Below are positions 11,719-59,764 of a stretch of 64,000 bases of DNA, piece after piece (positions within the stretch are counted from its first letter, which is position 1; every line of letters begins with the position of its first letter). The notes under the pieces are model-generated. The model did no database searches. It was given only the letters and a program-made list of their open reading frames with translations, and was not told the DNA's origin. Made by a program: the position numbers and the translations under genes. The stretch is from a virus (lineage: Duplodnaviria; Caudoviricetes): the IMG/VR virus record IMGVR_UViG_3300028563_000020, positions 2,143 through 66,142 of that record, one strand, 5' to 3'.

Positions 11719-12948
11719 TTAATATAATTCTCTAAAACTAAATGATCCGAAAGTATTAGCAGCTCCACCAGTAGCTGTTATAACAATACTTAATATTGTT
11801 GGGTTAGCTCCATTAATATCTAATGATAAAGGTTTTCTATTACTAACAGTATTTGTAAATGAATCTCTAAAACCACCTATTGCAGGTATATAACCAGAAT
11901 AAATAATTTCACCACCAGTAACTGTTGTTCCAGCAACATCAAATTCTACAATAGAGTTCGCTCCTACTGAATTCCAAACTGGTGTTCCCCCTAATGCTCC
12001 ATTATAAACAATTTCATAAAAAATAGTTGCATCAGGAAATATGTTATATGATTCAGGTCTAATTAAACCTCTGTTAACAATGCTATTAAATGTTGCTTTA
12101 GGTCTAATACTCAATATTGCTCTTCTTGTTGTAACTGAAATTGATGTTGTTGCATTATTTGCTGTATGTACTAGTCCATATTCGTCTTTATTACCACCTT
12201 CAGAAGTAACAACAGAACATAATTGTAACATTCTGGTTGGTGTAACTGTTACAGCAGTGTTTTGTAACTCATAGCGTAATGGCAAATTAGCTGTTTGCAT
12301 ATAAACAGTAGTAAGATTATTGGCATTAAACATTTGATGACAATAATAAGTTATACCGTTTATATTAAAACCAAATCTAACTCTACCAACGCCAAGCCAT
12401 TCGAAATCAATAACAAATATTTGTGTTTTGGACATATCTAATAAAATACCTGATTTACCAGTACCATCAAGTCTATCTATATTCCATACTGATTGATTTA
12501 TTGGATTATCAGCTACTGCACCGCTTGTTTTAGTTCTACGAACGACTTTTAGATTAGTACCATCTTGTTCAAAAAATAATCCATTATTAGCATCAAATAG
12601 TCCTAATCTTTGTCTAACATTAGTTTTTTTAGCACCCATTACACCTGTCATTAATACTTGTTGTGATCTTCCAGGTTGATATCTATAATATTCAAATGTT
12701 TGACGAATAGCTGTTGAACCAGATGCTGTAGTCCCTGATAATATAACACCACTATCATTTGGTGAATGTGTAATACTACCGCCAATAGATGTTGAACTCT
12801 GCCAATATAATGGATTTAAGCCATATTGGAATACTGTATCTATTAATGTTGTTGGATTTGAAACTCTAACACGCCCAAAAGCATCTGTTCCTGGAGAATC
12901 AGCAAATGTAATATTTTCGGGAGGCGTAGGGGTTGTTTGAATTATCAT
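11719..12948 (-). CDS. phage virion structural protein
   Basis: DAFGRVRVSNP, YRYQPGRSQ, DFEWLGVGRVRFG motifs seen in phage structural proteins. Confidence 0.65.
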   Translation of the reverse strand: MIIQTTPTPPENITFADSPGTDAFGRVRVSNPTTLIDTVFQYGLNPLYWQSSTSIGGSITHSPNDSGVILSGTTASGSTAIRQTFEYYRYQPGRSQQVLMTGVMGAKKTNVRQRLGLFDANNGLFFEQDGTNLKVVRRTKTSGAVADNPINQSVWNIDRLDGTGKSGILLDMSKTQIFVIDFEWLGVGRVRFGFNINGITYYCHQMFNANNLTTVYMQTANLPLRYELQNTAVTVTPTRMLQLCSVVTSEGGNKDEYGLVHTANNATTSISVTTRRAILSIRPKATFNSIVNRGLIRPESYNIFPDATIFYEIVYNGALGGTPVWNSVGANSIVEFDVAGTTVTGGEIIYSGYIPAIGGFRDSFTNTVSNRKPLSLDINGANPTILSIVITATGGAANTFGSFSFRELY

Positions 12949-52911: not shown

Positions 52912-53211
52912 ATGGAATTAGTAGATGAAATATATGTTATATTTAATAAATATAAAAATATTAAAAAATCTAATTTATTGAATTTTGAACTATGTCATAA
53001 AATAAATTTAATTAATAATAAGAATTTAATTATTGTTAGTTCGCCAATATTTAGATATAAAGGTATAAATCTATGTGTTAATGAGGATTATTTATCAATG
53101 GAAAAAATAACCAGAGCATTAAAAGAAAATTATCTTGTGTTTTTATATGAAACGGACAAAAACTCTAATAGTTATAGAGGAAATATATATAATAAGAATA
53201 GGTGGAACTAA
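52912..53211 (+). CDS. hypothetical protein
   Basis: 99-aa ORF after TATATTTG (52881-52888). Confidence 0.5.
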   Translation: MELVDEIYVIFNKYKNIKKSNLLNFELCHKINLINNKNLIIVSSPIFRYKGINLCVNEDYLSMEKITRALKENYLVFLYETDKNSNSYRGNIYNKNRWN

Positions 53212-53343
53212 TATATTAAGTATTTTATAAAATTAGAAATAAAAAAATAGTGAAAATTAATAATTTATATGATAAAAGAATCGATTTTTTATATTTAATT
53301 TTGAGTCTATATTATTGTAAATCACAATAATTATTTAGGGTAT

Positions 53344-53907
53344 ATTGTAATTATATAAAATTTAGTATGAAATCACAACAAACGAGTTTTTATTAACTCA
53401 GCAACTAATATTGTAATTATATAAAATTTAGTATGAAATCACAACATTTAAATCTGGATTATTCGATGAGATTAAATTGTAATTATATAAAATTTAGTAT
53501 GAAATCACAACTATATATCAAAGATATCAGGTTAGAATATCATTGTAATTATATAAAATTTAGTATGAAATCACAACTCAGGTTCTGATGATTTTACATT
53601 TTATGTAAATTGTAATTATATAAAATTTAGTATGAAATCACAACAACATGGCTTATCAGTGGCGTGAAAACATTATTGTAATTATATGAAATTTAGCATG
53701 AAATCACAACAGTTTCGTTATTCCCCGCATTCGAATAAGCATTGTAATTATATAAAATTTAGTATGAAATCACAACTCTGCTTTGGAAGGTGTTCCATTT
53801 CCTTTAATTGTAATTATATAAAATTTAATATGAAATCACAATTATTCGGGAGAACTGCCCATTATTTTTTAATTATAATTATGTAAAATCTATATTGAAA
53901 TAAAAAT
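53344..53907. CRISPR. CRISPR array: 8 repeats + 1 degenerate terminal repeat, 8 spacers
   Basis: Repeat ATTGTAATTATATAAAATTTAGTATGAAATCACAAC (36 nt) at 53344, 53410, 53476, 53542, 53609, 53675, 53741, 53807; degenerate copy 53872-53907 (27/36); spacers 30,30,30,31,30,30,30,29 nt. Confidence 0.97.
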
Positions 53908-53913
53908 TATTAT

Positions 53914-53921
53914 TATATTTG
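53914..53921 (+). promoter_or_regulatory. Bacteroidota-type promoter for cas3
   Basis: TATATTTG 18 nt before ATG 53940. Confidence 0.6.
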
Positions 53922-53939
53922 TAAAATAAAAAATGTAAA

Positions 53940-56234
53940 ATGATGAATAAACTTGACGAAATTTTAGCTAAAAGCAATGGATTATCTTTGATAACTCACT
54001 CTAAAGCAGTTGCTAAAATATGTGAATTATTATGTAATAAAATATTGAAACATAATAGTTCTTATGAATTAACAAAAAAATATATTATATTATCTGGATT
54101 ATTACATGATATTGGTAAATGTTGTAAATTTACACAAGACTATTTTAGGTATAATATAAATAAAAAAGATGTTAATATTTTTCATAATGAAATTAGTTGG
54201 GCATTTTTAAATAGTATATCAAATATTCAAAATGAAGAAATATCATATTTTTTAAATAGCGTATATTGGCATCATCCACATAATAATTCGAAAGCATCAA
54301 AAAATTATCAAGATATATTGTATAATGATAATATAAATTATGATGATGATATTAATTTAATGATATCATTATATAATGAGTTAACTGGTGATAATATCGA
54401 TAAATCTAAAATAAATTTAAATAAATCTTATAATAAGACTCCTGATTTTTTTTCAAATCACAAAGATTTAAACACTAATCCTAATTTTAAGAATATTCTT
54501 TACAGAAGTATTTTGATAAGTGCTGATAGAATAGTTTCTTCATTAGAAAATAATAGTGATGTAGAAAAAATTTTAATAAATGATCAATATTGTTTAGATT
54601 TAATTAATTGCGATAAAATAATATATGAAATAAATAAACCTGATGAATATGATAATAAAAGATTTAATAAACAATTAGATTGTTCTATTAAGGCACGTGA
54701 TTATAATACAACTATAATAAATGCAACTGCGGGATTTGGTAAAACATTAATTGGAACATTATGGTCACTTCCTTCAAAAAATAAATTGTTATGGGTTTGT
54801 CCTAGAAATGTTGTTGTAGAAACAGTATATGAGTCGATTATTAAAGAATTAAATGTTTTAAATATTAGTGATATAAGTGTTGAATTATATATTACTGGAG
54901 AAAGAAAAAAGTGTAACAATATTAATATCCCTATTTTTAATTCAGATATAATTGTTACTAATATTGACAACTTTTTAAAGCCATTTATAAGTAACGATGT
55001 TGCAAAAAGGTCATATTTCATACATGATTGTGATGTCGTTTTTGATGAATTTCATGAATTTATTGGCAATGAAGCATTGTTCTCAATGTTTATACAAATA
55101 ATGAATGTTAGAAATAATTTAACTAATTCCAAGACACTTCTTTTAAGTGCTACGCCTAGTAATATTAATTTTCTTTGGGATAATAATATTAATAAAACTT
55201 GTATATTACCAAATAAATATAAACATTATTCAGCGATACATGATAAAAATTATGAAATAAATATTATTAATGAAGATAACATAGTAAAAAATGATGATAC
55301 ATTAATAATAACAAATTCAATATTTAAAGCACAAGAATTAAAAAAATTTTTAGACATTGATTTATTAGTTCATTCTAAATTTCAAGAAAAAGATAAAATA
55401 GAAAAGATAGAAAAACTGAATAACTTATATGGTAAATCAAATAGAGATCAAATTAATAGATCTCCCGTTGTTGCAGCTCCTATTATCCAAGCAAGCATGG
55501 ATATATCATTCCCTTATTTAATTGAGTCATGTTGTTCGCCTGAAACAACATTACAAAGAATCGGAAGATGTAATAGATGGGGTAATTATAATAATTCTTG
55601 TATTAATATTATTAATTTATATAATAATAGGAGTGAACAAATGTCAATTAAAAACTTCTATGATATAAATTTAAGTAAATTATGGTTTAATTTTATTAGC
55701 AAAAAAATAAAAATATATAATAATGAAATTACTTTAGATGAATTATATATATTATATAATGAATTTCATGTAAATTATGAGACTGAAATAATTTCTTTTA
55801 TTAAGAATAAGTATAACAAGAGTTTAGAAAAATTAGAAAATGTATTCCCAAGTAGGAATATTAAAACATTACAAGAAGAACAAAATTATAATAATATTCC
55901 TAAAAATGGTTTAAGAAATAGTAAAGATAGTTATTATTGTATATATAAGTTTAATTCTAATAATGAATTTACTGAACCATTTTTAGAAAATGTTATGGAT
56001 TCTATAGATCGAGATCTAAAAGAAGATAGTAAAACATTAAGTAAAATAAAAAAAGTCATACCTAGGTTAATTGAATGTGGCTATAAGTATTCCAAATATA
56101 AACAATATTTGAAAAATTTAACATTGAGTAAATTATATGAAAAATCATATAGTAATGAAACGCCATATATTGCTTTTAATAAGGAATATTCTAAAGAATA
56201 TGGATTAGCAAAAAAAGAAATTTATGAAAATTAG
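53940..56234 (+). CDS. cas3: CRISPR-associated helicase/nuclease Cas3 (HD + SF2), no Cas2 fusion
   Basis: THS, LLHDIGK, HNEIS, YWHH, SADR; ATAGFGKT, DEFH, SAT, HSKF, QRIGRCNR. Confidence 0.95.
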   Translation: MMNKLDEILAKSNGLSLITHSKAVAKICELLCNKILKHNSSYELTKKYIILSGLLHDIGKCCKFTQDYFRYNINKKDVNIFHNEISWAFLNSISNIQNEEISYFLNSVYWHHPHNNSKASKNYQDILYNDNINYDDDINLMISLYNELTGDNIDKSKINLNKSYNKTPDFFSNHKDLNTNPNFKNILYRSILISADRIVSSLENNSDVEKILINDQYCLDLINCDKIIYEINKPDEYDNKRFNKQLDCSIKARDYNTTIINATAGFGKTLIGTLWSLPSKNKLLWVCPRNVVVETVYESIIKELNVLNISDISVELYITGERKKCNNINIPIFNSDIIVTNIDNFLKPFISNDVAKRSYFIHDCDVVFDEFHEFIGNEALFSMFIQIMNVRNNLTNSKTLLLSATPSNINFLWDNNINKTCILPNKYKHYSAIHDKNYEINIINEDNIVKNDDTLIITNSIFKAQELKKFLDIDLLVHSKFQEKDKIEKIEKLNNLYGKSNRDQINRSPVVAAPIIQASMDISFPYLIESCCSPETTLQRIGRCNRWGNYNNSCINIINLYNNRSEQMSIKNFYDINLSKLWFNFISKKIKIYNNEITLDELYILYNEFHVNYETEIISFIKNKYNKSLEKLENVFPSRNIKTLQEEQNYNNIPKNGLRNSKDSYYCIYKFNSNNEFTEPFLENVMDSIDRDLKEDSKTLSKIKKVIPRLIECGYKYSKYKQYLKNLTLSKLYEKSYSNETPYIAFNKEYSKEYGLAKKEIYEN

Positions 56235-56293
56235 TATTTTATTTAAAAATTTTTTATATATTTGTTGTATTAATAACTAAAAATAATTTTAAA

Positions 56294-57361
56294 ATGAAGA
56301 AAGTAAAAAATGTAATGTTTAGGATTACGATCAAAGGTAATGGAATTGTTAATTATGATAGCGGAGAACAGAAAAATGTATGGAAAGAATTCAAAAATAA
56401 AAAAGAGTTTGATAAAAAGAATGATAATTATATCTTTGCTAAGAAAAACTATTATTCATCTAGTGATGGTGAGCTTGAGTATAAGACAAAAATATCAAGT
56501 GATTGCCTTCGTCACAATATATTTATTGATGATATTCCATTTCAATCACCAAATATTGCTAGTGTTCCTGAATTATTATTACAATTTATAGCATCCCCCG
56601 CAGCTCTTACAAGAGGATATTTCTTTGGTGTAAGAGGAGATTCTTCAATAAAAAGATCAACTAAACTCGATATTATTGACGCAGAACAAACAAATAATGC
56701 AATTAGTGATTTAGAATTTTTTTCTAGAAGTGGAGAAAAAAATGACACTTCCATTTTCAATAAAGAAACAATAGGAAATGTTGAATATAAAACAAATGGT
56801 AGTATTGATTTGGAAGAATTACAATTTTGTTCTTGCGATGAAAAATTTGATAGATATAGTTTTAATCCAGATTTATTTCCGCAATATAAAAAAATATTAC
56901 AAACAAAACTTAAATCTTTTAATAGCGAATTAGGGTTTTATAAAATAAAAGGTACTTGTATTGATATTTCAGAATATGGTTTTAAATTATCTAATGACGA
57001 TATGTTAAGTTTAATTAAATATTTATTTATAAAAATATTAAAATTAAATATAAAACGTTCTAAAGCATTTGCTAAAACAGATTCTTTAGAATATAAATTA
57101 GTTTATGATCCATTTGAAGATAAATTGAATGATAATGAAGGGTGGATTACTATTAATAATTTGGATGATATTAATAATATTAACTTTGAAATTGAGGATC
57201 ATTATATTAAAACAGATACAGAAGATTCTTTGGCAATAAGAAAAACATTAGATGATAAGGCTAAAGAAAAAAAAGAGATTAAGGATAAGGAAAATAAAGA
57301 AAAAAGGGAGTATATAGAAAAAAAGAAATTAGAAAGAGAAGAAAAATCTAAAAATATATAA
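56294..57361 (+). CDS. cas7: Cas7 backbone subunit, Cas7fv (type I-F2)-like
   Basis: GNGIVNY, ISSDCLRHNIF, ASPAALTRGY, SGEKNDTSIFNKETIG, GSIDLEELQF, DEKFDR are collinear with my recollection of Shewanella Cas7fv. Confidence 0.8.
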   Translation: MKKVKNVMFRITIKGNGIVNYDSGEQKNVWKEFKNKKEFDKKNDNYIFAKKNYYSSSDGELEYKTKISSDCLRHNIFIDDIPFQSPNIASVPELLLQFIASPAALTRGYFFGVRGDSSIKRSTKLDIIDAEQTNNAISDLEFFSRSGEKNDTSIFNKETIGNVEYKTNGSIDLEELQFCSCDEKFDRYSFNPDLFPQYKKILQTKLKSFNSELGFYKIKGTCIDISEYGFKLSNDDMLSLIKYLFIKILKLNIKRSKAFAKTDSLEYKLVYDPFEDKLNDNEGWITINNLDDINNINFEIEDHYIKTDTEDSLAIRKTLDDKAKEKKEIKDKENKEKREYIEKKKLEREEKSKNI

Positions 57362-57363
57362 TT

Positions 57364-58266
57364 ATGATATATTATCTTTTTTTAGATTTTAAAAATGCTG
57401 GATGGTTTAACAGTAATGAAAATACTAAAGACTATGTTTATAATATAAATGGAAAAAGTAAAAGAATTAATACAAAAAAATATGTTGAACCAATAACTGT
57501 ATTTCAAATAAGTAACATGCTTCATGTATTATTAGGAGAAAGGCCAAAGCCATCATTACGAAAAACTGATGATAATTATATTAAAGAAATAGATATAATT
57601 AAAAATTTTGCACTTAATGGATGGATTAAAATAAATCCATATACATATTATGATAATAAATTTGAGAAGACAAGTATTTTATCTGAAAAATTGAAAACAA
57701 AAAAGTGTCAATGGGATAGTACGAATAAACAATGCTCAATTTATTGGAAAAAAATTGAACAATATCTAGAAAATTCATTATATGATGAATATATTGGAAT
57801 ACTTAAACAAACATTAAATATCAAAAATGTATATCAATATACAGTTGTTGAATGTTTGGATTTAATTTCTAAAATCTCTAATTCATTGATAGATGATTTT
57901 AAAATTAAATTAAAGAAATATAATAAAACAGATATGATTAATTTTATCGAAAAGGGTTCAAAAACGAAACATAAGTTGAATGATAATCCAAGAACTAGAT
58001 TAACATATATTGGTGGAATTACTGATATTACAAGATTGTCGGGAAAAATTATTATTCCTATTGATATGTGGGGTATTAATAAAATAAGAAATTCTAAAGG
58101 CTATGCTAGATTATTAGATGGTGGTCTTGTAACTATCGAAAATTTAATTGCTGAAGATATGTTCTATGATTCAATATTAAATGAATATACACCAATTAAA
58201 AATATTTCCACTGAATTAATTAATATTAAACTTAATAATGTAACTGAAGATGAGAATAAAAATTAA
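57364..58266 (+). CDS. cas5: Cas5, Cas5fv-like
   Basis: Between cas7 and cas6; ITVFQISNMLHVLLGERP helix, ITRLSGKIIIPID, C-terminal LLDGGLV loop; 300 aa. Confidence 0.65.
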   Translation: MIYYLFLDFKNAGWFNSNENTKDYVYNINGKSKRINTKKYVEPITVFQISNMLHVLLGERPKPSLRKTDDNYIKEIDIIKNFALNGWIKINPYTYYDNKFEKTSILSEKLKTKKCQWDSTNKQCSIYWKKIEQYLENSLYDEYIGILKQTLNIKNVYQYTVVECLDLISKISNSLIDDFKIKLKKYNKTDMINFIEKGSKTKHKLNDNPRTRLTYIGGITDITRLSGKIIIPIDMWGINKIRNSKGYARLLDGGLVTIENLIAEDMFYDSILNEYTPIKNISTELINIKLNNVTEDENKN

Positions 58267-58969
58267 TTTTACAAAGAATATTACGCCTGTTAAGAATAAT
58301 AATTTGCCTGATATTATGTATTATATTCATACTAAATGTTTAGGTAAAAATAATAAATATCATGGTTCTAAAAATAAAGATTATTCAATATCACAATTAT
58401 ATGGTGGTAAATTGGATATTGTTAATAATGTTCTTAATTTTAATAATGGTAGTTATATTATTATTAGTTCACAAAATGAGGAATTCTTAAGAAATATTAT
58501 TAAAAATATATACAATGAAAATTGTAATGAATTATTTAATGGTATGATGTTTGATAAAATTGATTATGTTTTTGAAGATTTTTATAATGGATGGAATTAT
58601 TTTTCTACATTATCACCTTTTATTATAAAGAAAAGAGGGGAAATTAAAGAAGGCGAAAGTAAATTTTATACATTAAATGATAATAATTTTAGCGAAATTG
58701 TTACAGAACATACAAAAAATAAATTATCTAAGATTAATAGCAATTTGAAATTAAATGATTTTAAGATAACTATTAATAATCATCCTAAACATAAAGTCAA
58801 AAAAGTTGAATATAATAATATTAAAAATCAAGCTAATCAATGTCAAATAAATATTTTTTGTAACAAAAATGTTGCAGAATTAATATATAATTTAGGTATT
58901 GGTCAATCAACTGGATGTGGCTTTGGCACAATCTATAAAACAGAAAATCATTCTAAATATAGAATATAA
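58250..58969 (+). CDS. cas6: Cas6 endoribonuclease (I-B/III-like rather than Csy4)
   Basis: YSISQL, TLSPFII, C-terminal G-rich loop LGIGQSTGCGFG. Confidence 0.9.
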   Translation: MRIKINFTKNITPVKNNNLPDIMYYIHTKCLGKNNKYHGSKNKDYSISQLYGGKLDIVNNVLNFNNGSYIIISSQNEEFLRNIIKNIYNENCNELFNGMMFDKIDYVFEDFYNGWNYFSTLSPFIIKKRGEIKEGESKFYTLNDNNFSEIVTEHTKNKLSKINSNLKLNDFKITINNHPKHKVKKVEYNNIKNQANQCQINIFCNKNVAELIYNLGIGQSTGCGFGTIYKTENHSKYRI

Positions 58970-59001
58970 TATATTCATTAAAATATTCTATTTTAGAAAG
59001 G

Positions 59002-59102
59002 GTCTATAATTATATAAAATTTATGTTAAATCTAAACGTTGTCGGTGGTGCTGCTAATAGTATTTGTCTATAATTATATAAAATTTAGTATGAAATCATA
59101 TT
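59002..59102. CRISPR. degenerate mini-array (2 repeats, 1 spacer)
   Basis: GTCTATAATTATATAAAATTTA at 59002 and 59066; the second copy matches repeat positions 5-32 exactly; spacer GTTGTCGGTGGTGCTGCTAATAGTATTT. Confidence 0.8.
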
Positions 59103-59263
59103 TAAACTTATAGAATCTATATTATTTTTTAGATTTTATAGGTTTTTTTATTTTAAATCTATAAATATTAAAAATATGTTTTCATTATTTATAGATTTTT
59201 CCATATTTTAAACTATTTATATTTGTAATATAAAAATAATAAATATTAATTAAATTAAAAATT

Positions 59264-59764
59264 ATGCTAATATCGATTAAAAAATTTGCTGAAATATGTG
59301 GAGTAACAGTAGAAACAATTAGAAATTGGGAAAAAGAAGGTAAAATAACCTCCCAAAGAACCCAAGGTGGACACAGAAGATTTGAATTAGAAGATGTTTT
59401 TAAGATAAATGATTTTGATGAAAAAATTATAAAAAGATGGGAAAACACAGAATTATTGAATGATGTTGAAGATAATAAAAAAATTAAAACAGTTAAGTAT
59501 TTTGAAGAATGTCTTAAAATAATAACAAATGAAAATTTTGAATTAATATTAGGAATGCATTCTTTTGATCATAGAATATTTTTTGTTCTTAAAAAAATAA
59601 TTGTAGAATCAGATATTAATTTTAATGTGCTTGATTTAATATTTAGTTATATAGATTATTCGAAATCAAAATTCTATGAATTATTTAAAACACCAAATAT
59701 TGATTTTGATAAAGAATTAGTAAATGGTTTTGTTGAATATTATAAACCTATTATAAATATTTAA
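59264..59764 (+). CDS. MerR-type HTH fused to capsid-N-terminal-like domain
   Basis: ISIKKFAEICGVTVETIRNWEKEGKI...RTQGGHRRF; then KRWENTELLNDV, similar to 51448..51858. Confidence 0.65.
   Translation: MLISIKKFAEICGVTVETIRNWEKEGKITSQRTQGGHRRFELEDVFKINDFDEKIIKRWENTELLNDVEDNKKIKTVKYFEECLKIITNENFELILGMHSFDHRIFFVLKKIIVESDINFNVLDLIFSYIDYSKSKFYELFKTPNIDFDKELVNGFVEYYKPIINI

What the first reader, a model, noticed from the sequence alone, without database searches (positions are those of the whole stretch)
53344..59102. Chimeric phage CRISPR-Cas: I-F2-like Cascade + stand-alone Cas3 + non-Csy4 Cas6, paired with a type II-C/VI-B-like array
Seen: array, then cas3-cas7-cas5-cas6, then a mini-array; no cas1, cas2, cas4, cas8 or cas11 in the window. 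Known: type I-F2 (I-Fv) uses Cas5fv/Cas7fv without Cas8, but normally with a Cas2-Cas3 fusion, Cas6f (Csy4), 28-nt repeats and 32-nt spacers. Here Cas7 motifs follow Cas7fv (by recall), yet Cas3 starts directly at the HD domain and Cas6 has the GIGQSTGCGFG loop of I-B/III enzymes. The array geometry (36/30 nt, GTTGT...TACAAT on the minus strand) is that of II-C/VI-B arrays. Inference: a minimal four-gene class 1 interference module that borrows the host's type II-C Cas1-Cas2 for spacer acquisition. I do not know of a described subtype with this combination, but cannot exclude one.
Basis: partly seen in the sequence, partly recalled or inferred. Interest (0 to 1): 0.92.

Follow-up and report, generated by a model that had tools for sequence, protein, structure and literature searches.

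The report
Huge-phage Cas8-less CRISPR-Cas3 module
A fragment of a very large bacteriophage carries an intact four-gene DNA-targeting CRISPR system with no large subunit and no spacer-capture genes. Its repeat array is laid out like the Cas9 arrays of Bacteroidota bacteria, so the host probably writes the phage's immune memory.

Summary
The locus holds an array (53344-53907: 8 good and 1 decayed 36-nt repeat, 29-31-nt spacers). It is followed by cas3, cas7, cas5 and cas6 (53940-58969) and a two-repeat mini-array (59003-59102), on a phage record that is 21% complete.

Cas7, Cas5 and the Cas3 helicase are nearest to type I-F2 (PDB 5O6U, 9G44). Cas3 has no Cas2 part, Cas6 is Cas6b-like, and the repeats are 36/30 rather than 28/32.

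The same four genes plus a 66-bp-period array recur in 21 further distinct long loci, and no fifth gene is conserved. Cas1 was absent from 19, Cas2 from 15 and Cas4 from 11 viral records, three of them at least 98% complete.

In 401 Bacteroidota genomes, the four arrays with the same period and repeat end all lie beside cas9-cas1 and have the same leader polarity. A covarying hairpin with U-G pairs puts the crRNA on the cas-gene strand, opposite to type II-C crRNAs. Related phages gain and lose spacers at the leader end.

Host-mediated acquisition is inferred, not shown, and no target was found for this window's spacers. This scan has noted the same family on other DNA, in at least 13 genomes. 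I found no published name. It is a new variant of a known kind.

The parts
53200..53343 (+). Putative leader, AT-rich. It ends in GGTAT at the junction with the first repeat. It contains a 15-nt 'collapsed repeat', ATTGTAAATCACAAT, at 53314-53328.
   Evidence: Sequence. The decayed repeats lie at the other end of the array. A GGTAY junction recurs in relatives' leaders (by eye). The leader function is inferred.
53344..53907 (+). CRISPR array: 8 conserved and 1 decayed 36-nt repeat, 8 spacers of 29-31 nt. The newest end is inferred to be at 53344.
   Evidence: The strand is assigned from the family-wide hairpin covariation and U-G pairs.
53940..56234 (+). cas3: an HD nuclease plus SF2 helicase of 764 aa with no Cas2 fusion.
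   Evidence: Pfam HD, DEAD and Cas3-like_C_2. TIGR01596 cas3_HD scores 55.1 bits, above its cut-off. PADLOC Cas3fv 1.3e-56 covers the helicase only; Cas3b 2.1e-42 covers the full length. PDB 9g44_A 6.4e-34. Motifs.
56294..57361 (+). cas7: the Cas7fv-like backbone subunit, 355 aa.
   Evidence: NCBIfam NF040577 Cas7fv 5.1e-24, at 85 bits below the 200-bit cut-off. PADLOC Cas7fv 1.2e-23. PDB 5o6u_C 1.5e-17 and 9g44_F 1.6e-17. 142 homologue clusters, none named as Cas.
57364..58266 (+). cas5: a Cas5fv-like subunit of 300 aa with a helical insertion at about residues 128-207.
   Evidence: No hit in Pfam, NCBIfam, PADLOC or PDB sequences. AF2 model pLDDT 87.6. Foldseek 5o6u_F E 2.8e-4 with prob 1.00, and 9g44_B 4.0e-4. 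VIA Z 7.6 and 6.8, then Cas5 of other type I systems at Z 5.1-5.8. It lies between cas7 and cas6 in 22 of 22 loci.
58250..58969 (+). cas6: a Cas6b-type endoribonuclease of 239 aa with a C-terminal G-rich loop, LGIGQSTGCGFG.
   Evidence: PADLOC Cas6b 6.3e-38, full length. TIGR01877 at 71.8 bits, above its cut-off. PF01881 1.7e-13. Translation.
59003..59102 (+). Mini-array: two variant repeats and one 28-29-nt spacer, at the place where relatives carry their main array.
   Evidence: In relatives the main array starts about 100 nt after cas6. Its function is unknown.

Best explanation
This is an intact, phage-borne, Cas8-less type I interference module, a distant and rebuilt relative of type I-F2.

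Inferred mechanism:
- The array is transcribed from its leader on the + strand.
- Cas6 cuts each repeat at a small hairpin (repeat positions 16-30). This leaves an 8-nt 5' handle (AUCACAAC), the spacer, and the 5' part of the next repeat.
- Cas7 and Cas5 assemble on the crRNA without a large or small subunit. The helical insertion of Cas5 stands in for Cas8, as in I-F2.
- The unfused HD-helicase Cas3 is recruited to the R-loop and degrades the target, most likely a rival phage or another mobile element.

Acquisition: the phage has no adaptation genes. Its repeats keep the length, spacer length, end motifs and leader polarity of Bacteroidota type II-C arrays, so new spacers are probably inserted in trans by a host Cas1-Cas2(-Cas9). 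Because the phage reads the strand opposite to II-C crRNA, a motif selected 3' of a II-C protospacer would fall 5' of the phage's protospacer. That is the side where a type I complex reads its PAM.

Shown here: gene identities, conservation of the four-gene set with its array, absence of adaptation genes in complete relatives, the II-C format of the array, the strand-specific covarying hairpin, and spacer turnover in relatives.

Inferred: processing, assembly, interference, the identity of the integrase, the PAM geometry and the targets.
For: Gene identities.

Family conservation:
- 65 fetched loci reduce to 21 distinct loci of at least 8 kb, plus the window.
- Cas7 is present in 22/22, Cas5 in 22/22, Cas3 in 21/22 and the Cas6b-like gene in 20/22.
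- The next most frequent ORF families (7, 5 and 4 loci) are ORFs of about 78 aa; the window's members lie antisense inside cas3 and cas7.

Family size: the Cas5 profile finds 535 representatives of 50%-identity clusters at E<=1e-3, and 294 at E<=1e-30.

No adaptation genes:
- Cas1 is absent from 19 distinct viral records, Cas2 from 15 of 15 and Cas4 from 11 of 11.
- These include records of 362 kb (100% complete), 310 kb (100%, with terminal repeats) and 597 kb (98%).

II-C format:
- The pattern AATYACAAC-N57-AATYACAAC hit 6 of 401 Bacteroidota genomes. One was the L017 locus itself and one was a simple tandem repeat. The reversed control hit 1 genome.
- The other four are arrays of 36-nt repeats and 30-nt spacers. 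All four lie in the order cas9, cas1, array on the same strand.
- The decayed repeat is at the cas-distal end in the 2 of 4 whose far end was printed.
- Outside the pattern columns they share 16, 16, 14 and 14 of 27 positions with the best phage repeat. Shuffles reached this 14, 9, 145 and 98 times in 2000.

Strand, from 26 distinct family repeats:
- The hairpin at columns 16-20/26-30 is 86.2% paired on the + strand, with 7 double-change cells (0 of 500 shuffles reach this).
- Pair 20-26 reads CG 14, UG 11, UA 1 on the + strand. The same 11 cells are unpaired on the - strand, where the hairpin is 77.7% paired.
- Arrays are co-oriented with the cas genes in all 26 loci.

Polarity: decay at the 3' end is clear in 20 of 26 loci.

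Turnover: phages that share one repeat differ in their leader-end spacers and share their trailer-end spacers (L113/L118 against L114/L115 against L112; L051 against L111 against L072).

Precedent: in Flavobacterium columnare a Cas1-less 36-bp VI-B array is filled by II-C Cas1. It is read from the leader while the II-C array is read towards it, and the PAM flips to the upstream side (PMC8092290, passages read).
Against: - Nothing about RNA, processing, binding or cleavage was measured.
- This window's own hairpin is weak (U-A, U-A, U-G). Its repeat folds no better than shuffles on the + strand (-1.8 kcal/mol, z 0.19). It folds better on the - strand (-5.6 kcal/mol, z -1.98).
- Each repeat also carries a sigma-70-like TTGTGA-17-TATAAT on the - strand. 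An end-to-end stem is more often paired on the - strand (73.1% against 54.3%), though without covariation and no better than shuffles.
- No protospacer was found for any window spacer, so targets and PAM are unknown.
- The record is 21% complete, so a cas1 elsewhere in this phage is not excluded.
- The host is not identified. The Bacteroidota link rests on two relatives' contigs that lie in Bacteroidota MAGs (L017's flanks look phage-like; L018's are uninformative) and on repeat likeness.
- In F. columnare the II-C acquisition motif lies 5 nt away from the protospacer (PMC8092290). Known type I complexes read the adjacent bases, so PAM compatibility is an open problem.
- Cas7 and Cas3_core score below the NCBIfam cut-offs.
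Confidence: 0.7

Rival explanations
1. The interference module is real, but the array is not filled by a host II-C system. Spacers come from an unrecognised phage-encoded integrase, or from another host system such as type I-B or a VI-B-linked machinery. Alternatively, arrays change only by recombination between co-infecting phages.
For: No direct evidence identifies the integrase. The host is unknown. One search also shows internal blocks of different spacers, which fits recombination or deletion as well as acquisition. A sister branch pairs the same Cas3-Cas7-Cas5 core with a Cas6e-like gene and 32-nt repeats, so the array type is exchangeable. The II-C likeness could be inherited rather than in use.
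Against: Repeat ends, length, spacer length and leader polarity match II-C arrays. These are the features an integrase reads. They are kept across 26 diverged repeats while the middle of the repeat varies. Leader-end differences with shared trailer ends are the signature of polarised insertion. No Cas1, Cas2 or Cas4 occurs in three complete genomes.
Confidence: 0.2
2. The array, or part of its output, is read on the minus strand in II-C fashion from repeat-embedded promoters. It would then feed or jam the host's Cas9, with Cascade use secondary or absent.
For: TTGTGA-17-TATAAT lies in each of the 8 good repeats on the - strand. The - strand repeat folds at -5.6 kcal/mol with z -1.98. The terminal stem is 73.1% paired on the - strand against 54.3% on the + strand. 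II-C arrays are transcribed from within repeats towards the leader (PMC8092290).
Against: The terminal stem shows no covariation and does not exceed shuffles (440 and 472 of 500 shuffles reach the observed pairing). The promoter-like motif is one sequence repeated in a region of about 20% G+C (92 promoter-like sites found, 72 expected). Bacteroidota promoters differ from the sigma-70 consensus (recalled). No tracrRNA or cas9 was looked for or seen in the window. The array always travels with cas6-cas7-cas5-cas3, on their strand.
Confidence: 0.1
3. It is an ordinary member of a described subtype (I-F2, I-B or another) that has been misjudged as a variant.
For: Cas7 and the Cas3 helicase hit I-F2 profiles and structures. 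All 120 listed Cas7 relatives carry a precomputed Pfam accession, PF28157.1, whose name I could not retrieve. Al-Shayeb et al. 2022 (Cell) and the data files of the 2025 classification could not be read.
Against: Four defining I-F2 features were tested and not met: the Cas2-Cas3 fusion, Cas6f, the 27/28-nt repeat with 32-nt spacer, and an adjacent cas1 (PMC12956352). Cas7 scores 85 bits against a 200-bit cut-off. There is no Cas8b for I-B. Full-text searches found no description.
Confidence: 0.07
4. It is a decaying, non-functional remnant.
For: The last two repeats are decayed. The main array has moved relative to its position in relatives, leaving a two-repeat remnant after cas6. No targets were found.
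Against: All four ORFs are full length compared with their homologues. The Cas3 HD and Walker A motifs are intact. Six of nine repeats are identical. The same sequence, with no differences in the listed pieces, is present in contigs of three other runs.
Confidence: 0.05

Closest known systems
Type I-F2 (formerly I-Fv) CRISPR-Cas, e.g. Shewanella putrefaciens CN-32 (PDB 5O6U, 5O7H, 9G44; PMC4937334, PMC12956352)
   Same: There is no Cas8 and no Cas11. The backbone is Cas7fv-family (5o6u_C 1.5e-17). Cas5 has a Cas5fv-like fold with a helical insertion (Z 7.6). The Cas3 helicase is nearest that of Cas2-3f2 (9g44_A 6.4e-34). The interference set has four genes.
   Different: Cas3 is not fused to Cas2. 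Its HD region aligns with Cas3b-type profiles, not with Cas3fv. Cas6 is Cas6b-type, not Cas6f. Repeats are 36 nt with 30-nt spacers, against 27/28 and 32. There is no cas1. The system sits on huge phages rather than on plasmids or islands. Cas7 is below the NCBIfam Cas7fv cut-off.
Type II-C arrays of Bacteroidota (cas9-cas1-cas2-array), found here in G379, G129, G097 and G361
   Same: 36-nt repeats and 30-nt spacers. The repeat reads NNTGT...AAAT(C/T)ACAAC on the cas-gene strand. The leader lies on the NNTGT side and the decayed repeat at the far end.
   Different: The window has no cas9, cas1 or cas2. I did not look for a tracrRNA. The phage repeats carry a covarying hairpin (columns 16-30) that the four II-C repeats lack. 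The phage crRNA is inferred to come from the opposite strand.
Cas1-less type VI-B (Cas13b) array of Flavobacterium columnare, filled in trans by II-C Cas1 (PMC8092290)
   Same: A Cas1-less effector with a 36-bp-repeat array that shares the GTTGT leader-distal repeat end with II-C. It is read from the leader, so the acquisition motif ends up upstream of the protospacer.
   Different: The effector is Cas13b, which targets RNA, not Cascade-Cas3. It is chromosomal rather than phage-borne. Trans-acquisition was shown there by a cas1 deletion and is only inferred here.
CRISPR-Cas systems of huge phages that lack adaptation genes (Al-Shayeb et al. 2020, PMC7162821)
   Same: Phage-borne, no Cas1, Cas2 or Cas4, and thought to act against rival phages.
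   Different: In the passages I read, the type I variant described there is I-C-like. It lacks Cas6 and has another helicase in place of Cas3.

Membership tests
Type I-F2 (I-Fv) | Cas7fv/Cas7f2 backbone protein | tested here: inconclusive
   NF040577 scores E 5.1e-24 but only 85.1 bits against a 200-bit cut-off. 5o6u_C scores 1.5e-17 over residues 54-265. It is a clear relative but not an equivalog.
Type I-F2 (I-Fv) | Cas5fv/Cas5f2 with a helical domain that replaces Cas8 | tested here: inconclusive
   There is no sequence hit. The model's best fold matches are 5o6u_F (Foldseek E 2.8e-4, prob 1.00, TM 0.34; VIA Z 7.6, rmsd 3.4, 128 aligned) and 9g44_B (Z 6.8). Helices span about residues 128-207.
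Type I-F2 (I-Fv) | No Cas8 and no Cas11 | tested here: met
   The operon has four tightly packed genes. No fifth gene is conserved across 22 loci. The scanned neighbours give no Cas hit. I ran no HMM search of the whole window for Cas8 or Cas11.
Type I-F2 (I-Fv) | Cas2-Cas3 fusion (Cas2-3f2) | tested here: not met
   Cas3 begins at the HD domain. The Cas3fv profile is matched only from position 293 of 951. There is no Cas2 Pfam match in the record.
Type I-F2 (I-Fv) | Cas6f-type endoribonuclease | tested here: not met
   The best PADLOC hits are Cas6b (6.3e-38) and generic Cas6. No Cas6f model is listed.
Type I-F2 (I-Fv) | 27/28-nt repeats with 32-nt spacers | tested here: not met
   Repeats are 36 nt and spacers 29-31 nt. 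The I-F2 values are taken from PMC12956352.
Type I-F2 (I-Fv) | cas1 in the locus | tested here: not met
   PF01867 is absent from the record and from 18 related viral records.
Type I-F2 (I-Fv) | GG PAM read by Cas5 | not testable with these tools
   No protospacers were found for the window's spacers.
Type I (any subtype) | Cas3 HD nuclease-helicase together with Cas7, Cas5 and Cas6 | tested here: met
Type I-B | Cas8b large subunit with Cas6b | tested here: not met
   A Cas6b-like protein is present. There is no gene for a large subunit in the operon and none is conserved across 22 loci.
Type II-C array format (Bacteroidota) | 36-nt repeat and 30-nt spacer, GTTGT at the leader-distal repeat end, leader on the other side | tested here: met
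   PMC8092290.
Type II-C system | cas9, cas1, cas2 and a tracrRNA beside the array | tested here: not met
   cas1 and cas2 are absent from the record. The flanks of the array are a 99-aa ORF and cas3. I did not search the record for cas9 or a tracrRNA.
Type VI-B | Cas13b effector beside the array | not tested
   I ran no Cas13b profile. The ORFs that flank the array are accounted for otherwise.

The most novel reading that the evidence does not exclude
Huge phages of Bacteroidota carry a rebuilt, Cas8-less Cascade-Cas3 whose array is a deliberate copy of the host's type II-C array format. The host's Cas9-Cas1-Cas2 machinery writes spacers into the phage genome. The phage reads them from the opposite strand through a Cas6 hairpin that it evolved inside the II-C-type repeat, which turns the host's 3' PAM into the 5' PAM a type I complex needs. 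The sister branch, with a Cas6e-like gene and 32-nt repeats, would be the same core re-fitted to hosts with another array type. On this reading the Cas6-plus-repeat cassette is an exchangeable adaptor between a phage effector and whichever host integrase is available.
Probability: 0.4. Interest if true: 0.85.

Novelty: new variant of a known kind. Interest (0 to 1): 0.72.

Why it matters
If the reading holds, three things follow.

1. It would be a case of a virus using its host's adaptation enzymes to build its own DNA-targeting memory across CRISPR classes: a class 2 integrase serving a class 1 effector. So far such trans-acquisition has been shown for a chromosomal VI-B locus in one bacterium and for IV-A3 plasmids.

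2. It widens the Cas8-less design, known only from I-F2, to a large and diverse family (535 representatives of 50%-identity clusters for Cas5). This gives many natural variants for asking how Cas5 and Cas7 replace the large and small subunits and how Cas3 is recruited.

3. The interference genes span about 5 kb and include an unfused Cas3. That is of practical interest for compact long-range deletion tools.

The strand and PAM prediction, and the cas1 dependence of spacer gain, can both be tested directly.

Tried and rejected
Targets. I looked for protospacers of the window's spacers and found none.
- The whole array against INPHARED phages gave 15 short hits, all E >= 0.05.
- The array against PLSDB plasmids gave 4 Bacillus hits of 77-79% over about 70 nt that span a repeat and a spacer, which I take as chance.
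- The array against 401 Bacteroidota genomes gave 15 genomes with hits at 1e-5 to 1e-3. The top hits I mapped by coordinates lie on repeat sequence, on a repeat-spacer junction or in non-array tandem repeats; the rest I did not map.
- Five of the 8 spacers, written with N at every sixth base, gave 0 matches in IMG/VR. The other three spacers and the mini-array spacer were not scanned there.
- Within the window the best partial self-matches are 19-22 of 28-30 nt.
- A local BLAST of 333 unique family spacers against all held loci gave one plausible match, an L017 spacer against L053 at 26/30, and two low-complexity ones. That is too few to infer a PAM.
- The arrays of L009 and L023 against 10 viral records each gave array-to-array matches and short junction matches only.

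Other negative or uninformative steps.
- The repeat core was not found elsewhere in IMG/VR.
- BLAST of the L017 array against 401 Bacteroidota genomes gave chance-level hits. G375's 14-24 matches are a 213-bp protein repeat, not an array.
- The profile of 48 Cas5 homologues against PDB sequences gave only unrelated weak hits.
- Rfam gave no match in 53200-59300.
- Sequencing runs: no RNA holder is listed. Four DNA runs labelled rhizosphere metagenome hold the stretch, one of them possibly the source. Their contigs break inside the array, so nothing can be said about spacer variation in this phage.
- No intrinsic-terminator-like site was found in 53000-59400.
- The Cas1 found in MAG G006 lies on another contig, with no array in the 3.9 kb fetched, so it does not bear on L017.
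- I did not send a complex-prediction job, because homology and synteny already carry the assembly claim.

Papers.
- Read in passages: PMC8092290, PMC12956352, PMC12669027, PMC11656645, PMC7162821, PMC11127173.
- Abstract and outline only: PMC10161043. It describes the ICP1 I-F system, which is not this one.
- Al-Shayeb et al. 2022 (Cell) is not held.
- Supplements were not opened. Fig. S5/S6 of PMC8092290, and Extended Data Fig. 1 and the data files of PMC12669027, may bear on repeat likeness and on whether this variant is already listed.
- 'No published name' rests on searches only.

Recalled and not tested, and not used as evidence: the likeness of these repeats to particular published Cas13b direct repeats; the likeness of the 32-nt sister-branch repeat to type I-C repeats; the Bacteroidota promoter consensus.

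Full report
OBSERVATION

The window is bases 2143-66142 of a 66,142-bp IMG/VR virus record that CheckV rates 21% complete. It encodes a DnaB-like helicase, a DNA polymerase and virion proteins, and has about 20-29% G+C.

At 53344-53907 there are eight copies of a 36-nt repeat with 0-2 changes and a ninth with 9 changes. Start-to-start spacing is 65-67 nt and spacers are 29-31 nt. Four tightly packed + strand ORFs follow at 53940-56234, 56294-57361, 57364-58266 and 58250-58969. Thirty-four nt after the last stop lie two variant repeats around a 28-29-nt spacer (59003-59102).

THE FOUR PROTEINS

ORF1 is Cas3.
- It matches Pfam HD, DEAD and Cas3-like_C_2. TIGR01596 cas3_HD scores above its cut-off. 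TIGR01587 cas3_core scores 89.5 bits, below its 102-bit cut-off.
- PADLOC's best model is Cas3fv (1.3e-56). It is matched only over residues 152-707, to profile positions 293-864 of 951. Cas3b models cover the whole protein (2.1e-42).
- The only PDB sequence hit is the Cas2-truncated Cas2-3f2 of the I-F2 complex (9g44_A, 6.4e-34, residues 176-613).
- The protein starts with the HD motifs (H20, HD55-56, HH110-111 and H113) and has a Walker A at 267.
- So there is no Cas2 part, and only the helicase is I-F2-like at the sequence level.

ORF2 is a Cas7fv relative. NCBIfam NF040577 gives 5.1e-24, at 85 bits below the 200-bit cut-off. PADLOC Cas7fv gives 1.2e-23. PDB 5o6u_C gives 1.5e-17 and 9g44_F 1.6e-17.

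ORF3 has no hit in Pfam, NCBIfam, PADLOC or PDB sequences, alone or as a profile.
- It has 48 unnamed homologues in the word-indexed search.
- A profile of these finds 535 representatives of 50%-identity clusters at E<=1e-3, 467 at 1e-10 and 294 at 1e-30.
- An AlphaFold model built on the 48-sequence alignment has pLDDT 87.6.
- Foldseek finds 2 matches at E<=0.001 among 430 listed. Both are Cas5 of I-F2 complexes: 5o6u_F (2.8e-4, prob 1.00, TM 0.34) and 9g44_B (4.0e-4).
- VIA-align gives Z 7.6 (rmsd 3.4, 128 aligned) and 6.8. Cas5 subunits of I-B, I-E, I-D, I-A and I-F complexes follow at Z 5.1-5.8.
- The Z values are middling by the tool's own caveat. The ranking, the helical insertion (about 128-207) and the gene's fixed place between cas7 and cas6 make Cas5 the best reading.

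ORF4 is a Cas6 of the Cas6b kind. PADLOC Cas6b gives 6.3e-38 end to end. TIGR01877 scores above its cut-off. PF01881 gives 1.7e-13. The G-rich loop LGIGQSTGCGFG is present.

A CONSERVED FOUR-GENE FAMILY ON HUGE PHAGES

Scans with Cas7 and with the Cas5 alignment fetched 8 and then 26 viral loci, 55 metagenome loci and 2 genome loci.
- Of the 65 loci L009-L073, 21 are distinct and at least 8 kb long. With the window that makes 22.
- Cas7 is in 22/22, Cas5 in 22/22, Cas3 in 21/22 and the Cas6b-like gene in 20/22.
- The next most frequent ORF families occur in only 7, 5 and 4 loci. They are ORFs of about 78 aa; the window's members lie antisense inside cas3 and cas7.
- The usual order is cas3-cas7-cas5-cas6-array with a 66-bp period. 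Some loci have the array between cas6 and cas3 (L009, L017, L023), and the window has it before cas3.
- Carrier contigs reach 597 kb.
- The two 'genome' loci are contigs of Bacteroidota MAGs. L017's flanks look like phage: a Thg1-like enzyme, a helicase and a methyltransferase.
- Cas7 has 142 homologue clusters in the word-indexed search. None is named as Cas.

NO ADAPTATION GENES

- Pfam Cas1 is absent from the window's record, from 5 related records and from 14 more, one of which repeats. That makes 19 distinct records.
- Cas2 is absent from 15 of 15 and Cas4 from 11 of 11.
- Three records are essentially complete: 362 kb at 100%, 310 kb at 100% with terminal repeats, and 597 kb at 98%.
- The controls found the families in 6-8 of 14 reference genomes.
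- For the family, lack of an adaptation module is therefore real. For this 21%-complete phage it is likely but not shown.

THE ARRAY IS IN BACTEROIDOTA TYPE II-C FORMAT

I extracted 26 distinct 36-nt repeats, one per locus. They align without gaps. The 3' end AATCACAAC and the TGT at columns 3-5 are nearly fixed, and the middle varies.

I then searched 401 Bacteroidota genomes, a sample of the phylum centred on the MAG that holds L017. The pattern was two copies of AATYACAAC set 66 bp apart.
- Six genomes matched: the L017 locus itself, one simple tandem repeat (G405), and four arrays (G379, G129, G097, G361; 22, 13, 21 and 2 pattern matches).
- The reversed control pattern matched once.
- All four arrays have 36-nt repeats and 29-31-nt spacers.
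- All four lie just downstream of cas9 (TIGR01865, E 5e-107 to 3e-211) and cas1, on the same strand.
- On that strand the repeat reads NNTGT...AAAT(C/T)ACAAC.
- In the 2 of 4 arrays whose far end was printed, the decayed repeat is at the cas-distal end, so the leader is cas-proximal.
- The phage arrays have the same polarity. Decay at the 3' end is clear in 20 of 26 loci and ambiguous in one (L108). It is absent in five, four of which run into a contig end.
- Outside the nine pattern columns, the four II-C repeats share 16, 16, 14 and 14 of 27 positions with their best phage repeat. Shuffles of those columns reached this 14, 9, 145 and 98 times in 2000. This is modest but real extra likeness for two of them.
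- The window's own repeat shares 16-22 of 36 positions with the four.

This matches what Hoikkala et al. describe for F. columnare (PMC8092290, passages). There, 36-bp II-C and VI-B repeats share the GTTGT leader-distal end, which is the reverse complement of the end conserved here.

WHICH STRAND MAKES THE crRNA

On the 26-repeat alignment, a hairpin at columns 16-20/26-30 with a 5-nt loop (GNAAG in most) behaves as follows.
- It is 86.2% paired on the + strand, with two covarying pairs and 7 double-change cells (0 of 500 shuffles reach this). It is better than every slid control.
- Pair 19-27 reads CG 19, UA 5, AU 1, UG 1. Pair 20-26 reads CG 14, UG 11, UA 1. Both are paired in 26 of 26.
- On the - strand the 11 U-G cells become unpaired, and pairing falls to 77.7%.

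It shows no covariation and does not exceed shuffles (440 and 472 of 500 shuffles reach the observed pairing). I read it as the inherited inverted ends of II-C-type repeats rather than as an RNA fold.

Taken together with co-orientation with the cas genes in all 26 loci and the leader polarity, the crRNA is best placed on the + strand. Cas6 would then leave the 8-nt handle AUCACAAC; an 8-nt handle is the usual Cas6 product (established knowledge). This strand is antisense to II-C crRNAs, which are transcribed towards the leader (PMC8092290).

Caveats for this window:
- Its own hairpin is only U-A, U-A, U-G.
- Its repeat folds no better than shuffles on the + strand and better on the - strand.
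- Each good repeat has TTGTGA-17-TATAAT on the - strand.

A minus-strand transcript is therefore not excluded.

ARE THE ARRAYS ALIVE?

In phages that share one repeat sequence, the spacers differ at the leader end and agree at the trailer end.
- L113/L118 (25 spacers) and L114/L115 (22 spacers) share 13 spacers in the same order, including the trailer-most ones, and differ at the leader end. L112, cut by its contig end after 2 spacers, shares one spacer with L114/L115.
- L051, L111 and L072 share spacer 2. L051 and L111 also share spacers 4-16 and differ ahead of them.
- L101 differs from seven sister contigs only in the first spacer.

This is the pattern expected of polarised acquisition with occasional loss. 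It occurs in lineages where no adaptation gene was found, though those particular records are only 4-64% complete.

For the window itself only one version exists. Contigs of three further runs labelled rhizosphere metagenome are identical where they cover it, and they break in the array.

A SISTER BRANCH

L043, L058, L062 and L069 (with L071, a duplicate of L043) keep Cas3 (Cas3fv 1e-72), Cas7 (Cas7fv 2e-26) and Cas5. They have a 178-aa Cas6e-like gene (2e-24) and 32-nt GC-hairpin repeats at a 66-67-bp period. The core is therefore constant, while Cas6 and the repeat change together. That fits the idea that the cassette adapts the effector to a given array type.

MECHANISM AND ITS WEAK POINTS

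The best-supported reading is an I-F2-like, Cas8-less Cascade with an unfused Cas3 that acts on DNA of competitors. Its array is probably written by a host II-C Cas1-Cas2.

In F. columnare, spacers enter with the PAM side facing the leader (PMC8092290). Reading from the leader therefore puts that motif 5' of the protospacer, next to the 5' handle, where Cas5 reads the PAM in I-F2 (PMC12956352).

The geometry works, but the F. columnare motif sits 5 nt away from the protospacer. Whether this Cas5 reads a distant motif, an adjacent one or none is open.

No protospacer was found for the window's spacers. Targets, PAM and host therefore remain unknown.

COMPARISON AND NOVELTY

Against I-F2, three features are shared: no Cas8 or Cas11, and Cas7fv-like and Cas5fv-like subunits. 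Four were tested and not met: the Cas2-3 fusion, Cas6f, 27/28-nt repeats with 32-nt spacers, and cas1. It should not be filed as I-F2.

- The 2025 classification mentions only HNH variants and 'a I-F variant intermediate between I-F1 and I-F2' (PMC12669027, passages).
- The 2020 huge-phage paper describes a different, I-C-like variant (PMC7162821, passages).
- Six full-text searches found no description.
- I could not read Al-Shayeb et al. 2022 or any supplements.
- A precomputed Pfam accession (PF28157.1) on all 120 listed Cas7 relatives shows that at least the Cas7 family is already modelled, under a name I could not see.

This scan has already noted the same family on other DNA, in at least 13 genomes. 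My tests agree with those notes. They add the bacterial II-C arrays with their gene context, the strand test by covariation, and the spacer-turnover comparison.

VERDICT

This is a real, intact member of a widespread but apparently unnamed huge-phage variant of type I, related to I-F2, with an array in II-C format. It is a new variant of a known kind, and interest is high but not extreme.

Noticed in passing
L043:6596-13488, L069:6618-12149, L058, L062: A sister branch keeps the same Cas3-Cas7-Cas5 core but has a 178-aa Cas6e-like gene and 32-nt GC-hairpin repeats ending GTTGAAAG, at a 66-67-bp period, in place of Cas6b and 36/30 repeats.
   Followed up: partly
window:53314-53328: ATTGTAAATCACAAT lies 15 nt before the first repeat. 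It consists of the first 6 and last 9 bases of the repeat joined together (last base changed), inside a short inverted repeat. It could be a collapsed repeat or a leader element.
   Followed up: no
window:53350-53841, minus strand, once per repeat: Each of the 8 good repeats carries TTGTGA-17-TATAAT on the minus strand, pointing towards the leader. This recalls the repeat-embedded promoters of II-C arrays. In relatives a TTATAT block (repeat columns 9-14, + strand) is conserved at the matching place.
   Followed up: partly
window:53688 and 53697 (repeat 6): Repeat 6 differs from the consensus at exactly two positions (A>G and T>C). These would pair in an inner stem of this phage's repeat, and the change is compensatory on either strand. 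That stem is not conserved in the family alignment.
   Followed up: partly
leaders of L020, L026, L027, L030, L033, L037, L042, L045, L051, L055, L056, L063, L109: About half of the family's leaders (13 of 26, by eye) share GTTCTTTGACRT followed by a T-run within the 90 nt before the first repeat. The window's leader lacks it, which fits the array having moved.
   Followed up: no
L053:8390-8755 and 11724-12485; G016:C1:595594-596542: Some relatives carry two arrays of the same repeat. L053 has one between cas3 and cas7 and one after cas6. The 597-kb phage has a second array about 30 kb away, near the contig end.
   Followed up: no
L017:11792-11821 against L053:20247-20276: A spacer of one family member matches another family member's contig at 26 of 30 positions. 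This hints that these phages target each other.
   Followed up: partly
window:59264-59764: A MerR-family HTH gene (166 aa) follows the mini-array. It also hits the PADLOC model mad1 (5e-14) through its HTH. It might regulate the locus.
   Followed up: no
window:56294-57361 and its homologues P0049-P0168: All 120 listed Cas7 relatives carry the precomputed Pfam accession PF28157.1, which is missing from the Pfam copy I could search, so its name is unknown to me.
   Followed up: partly
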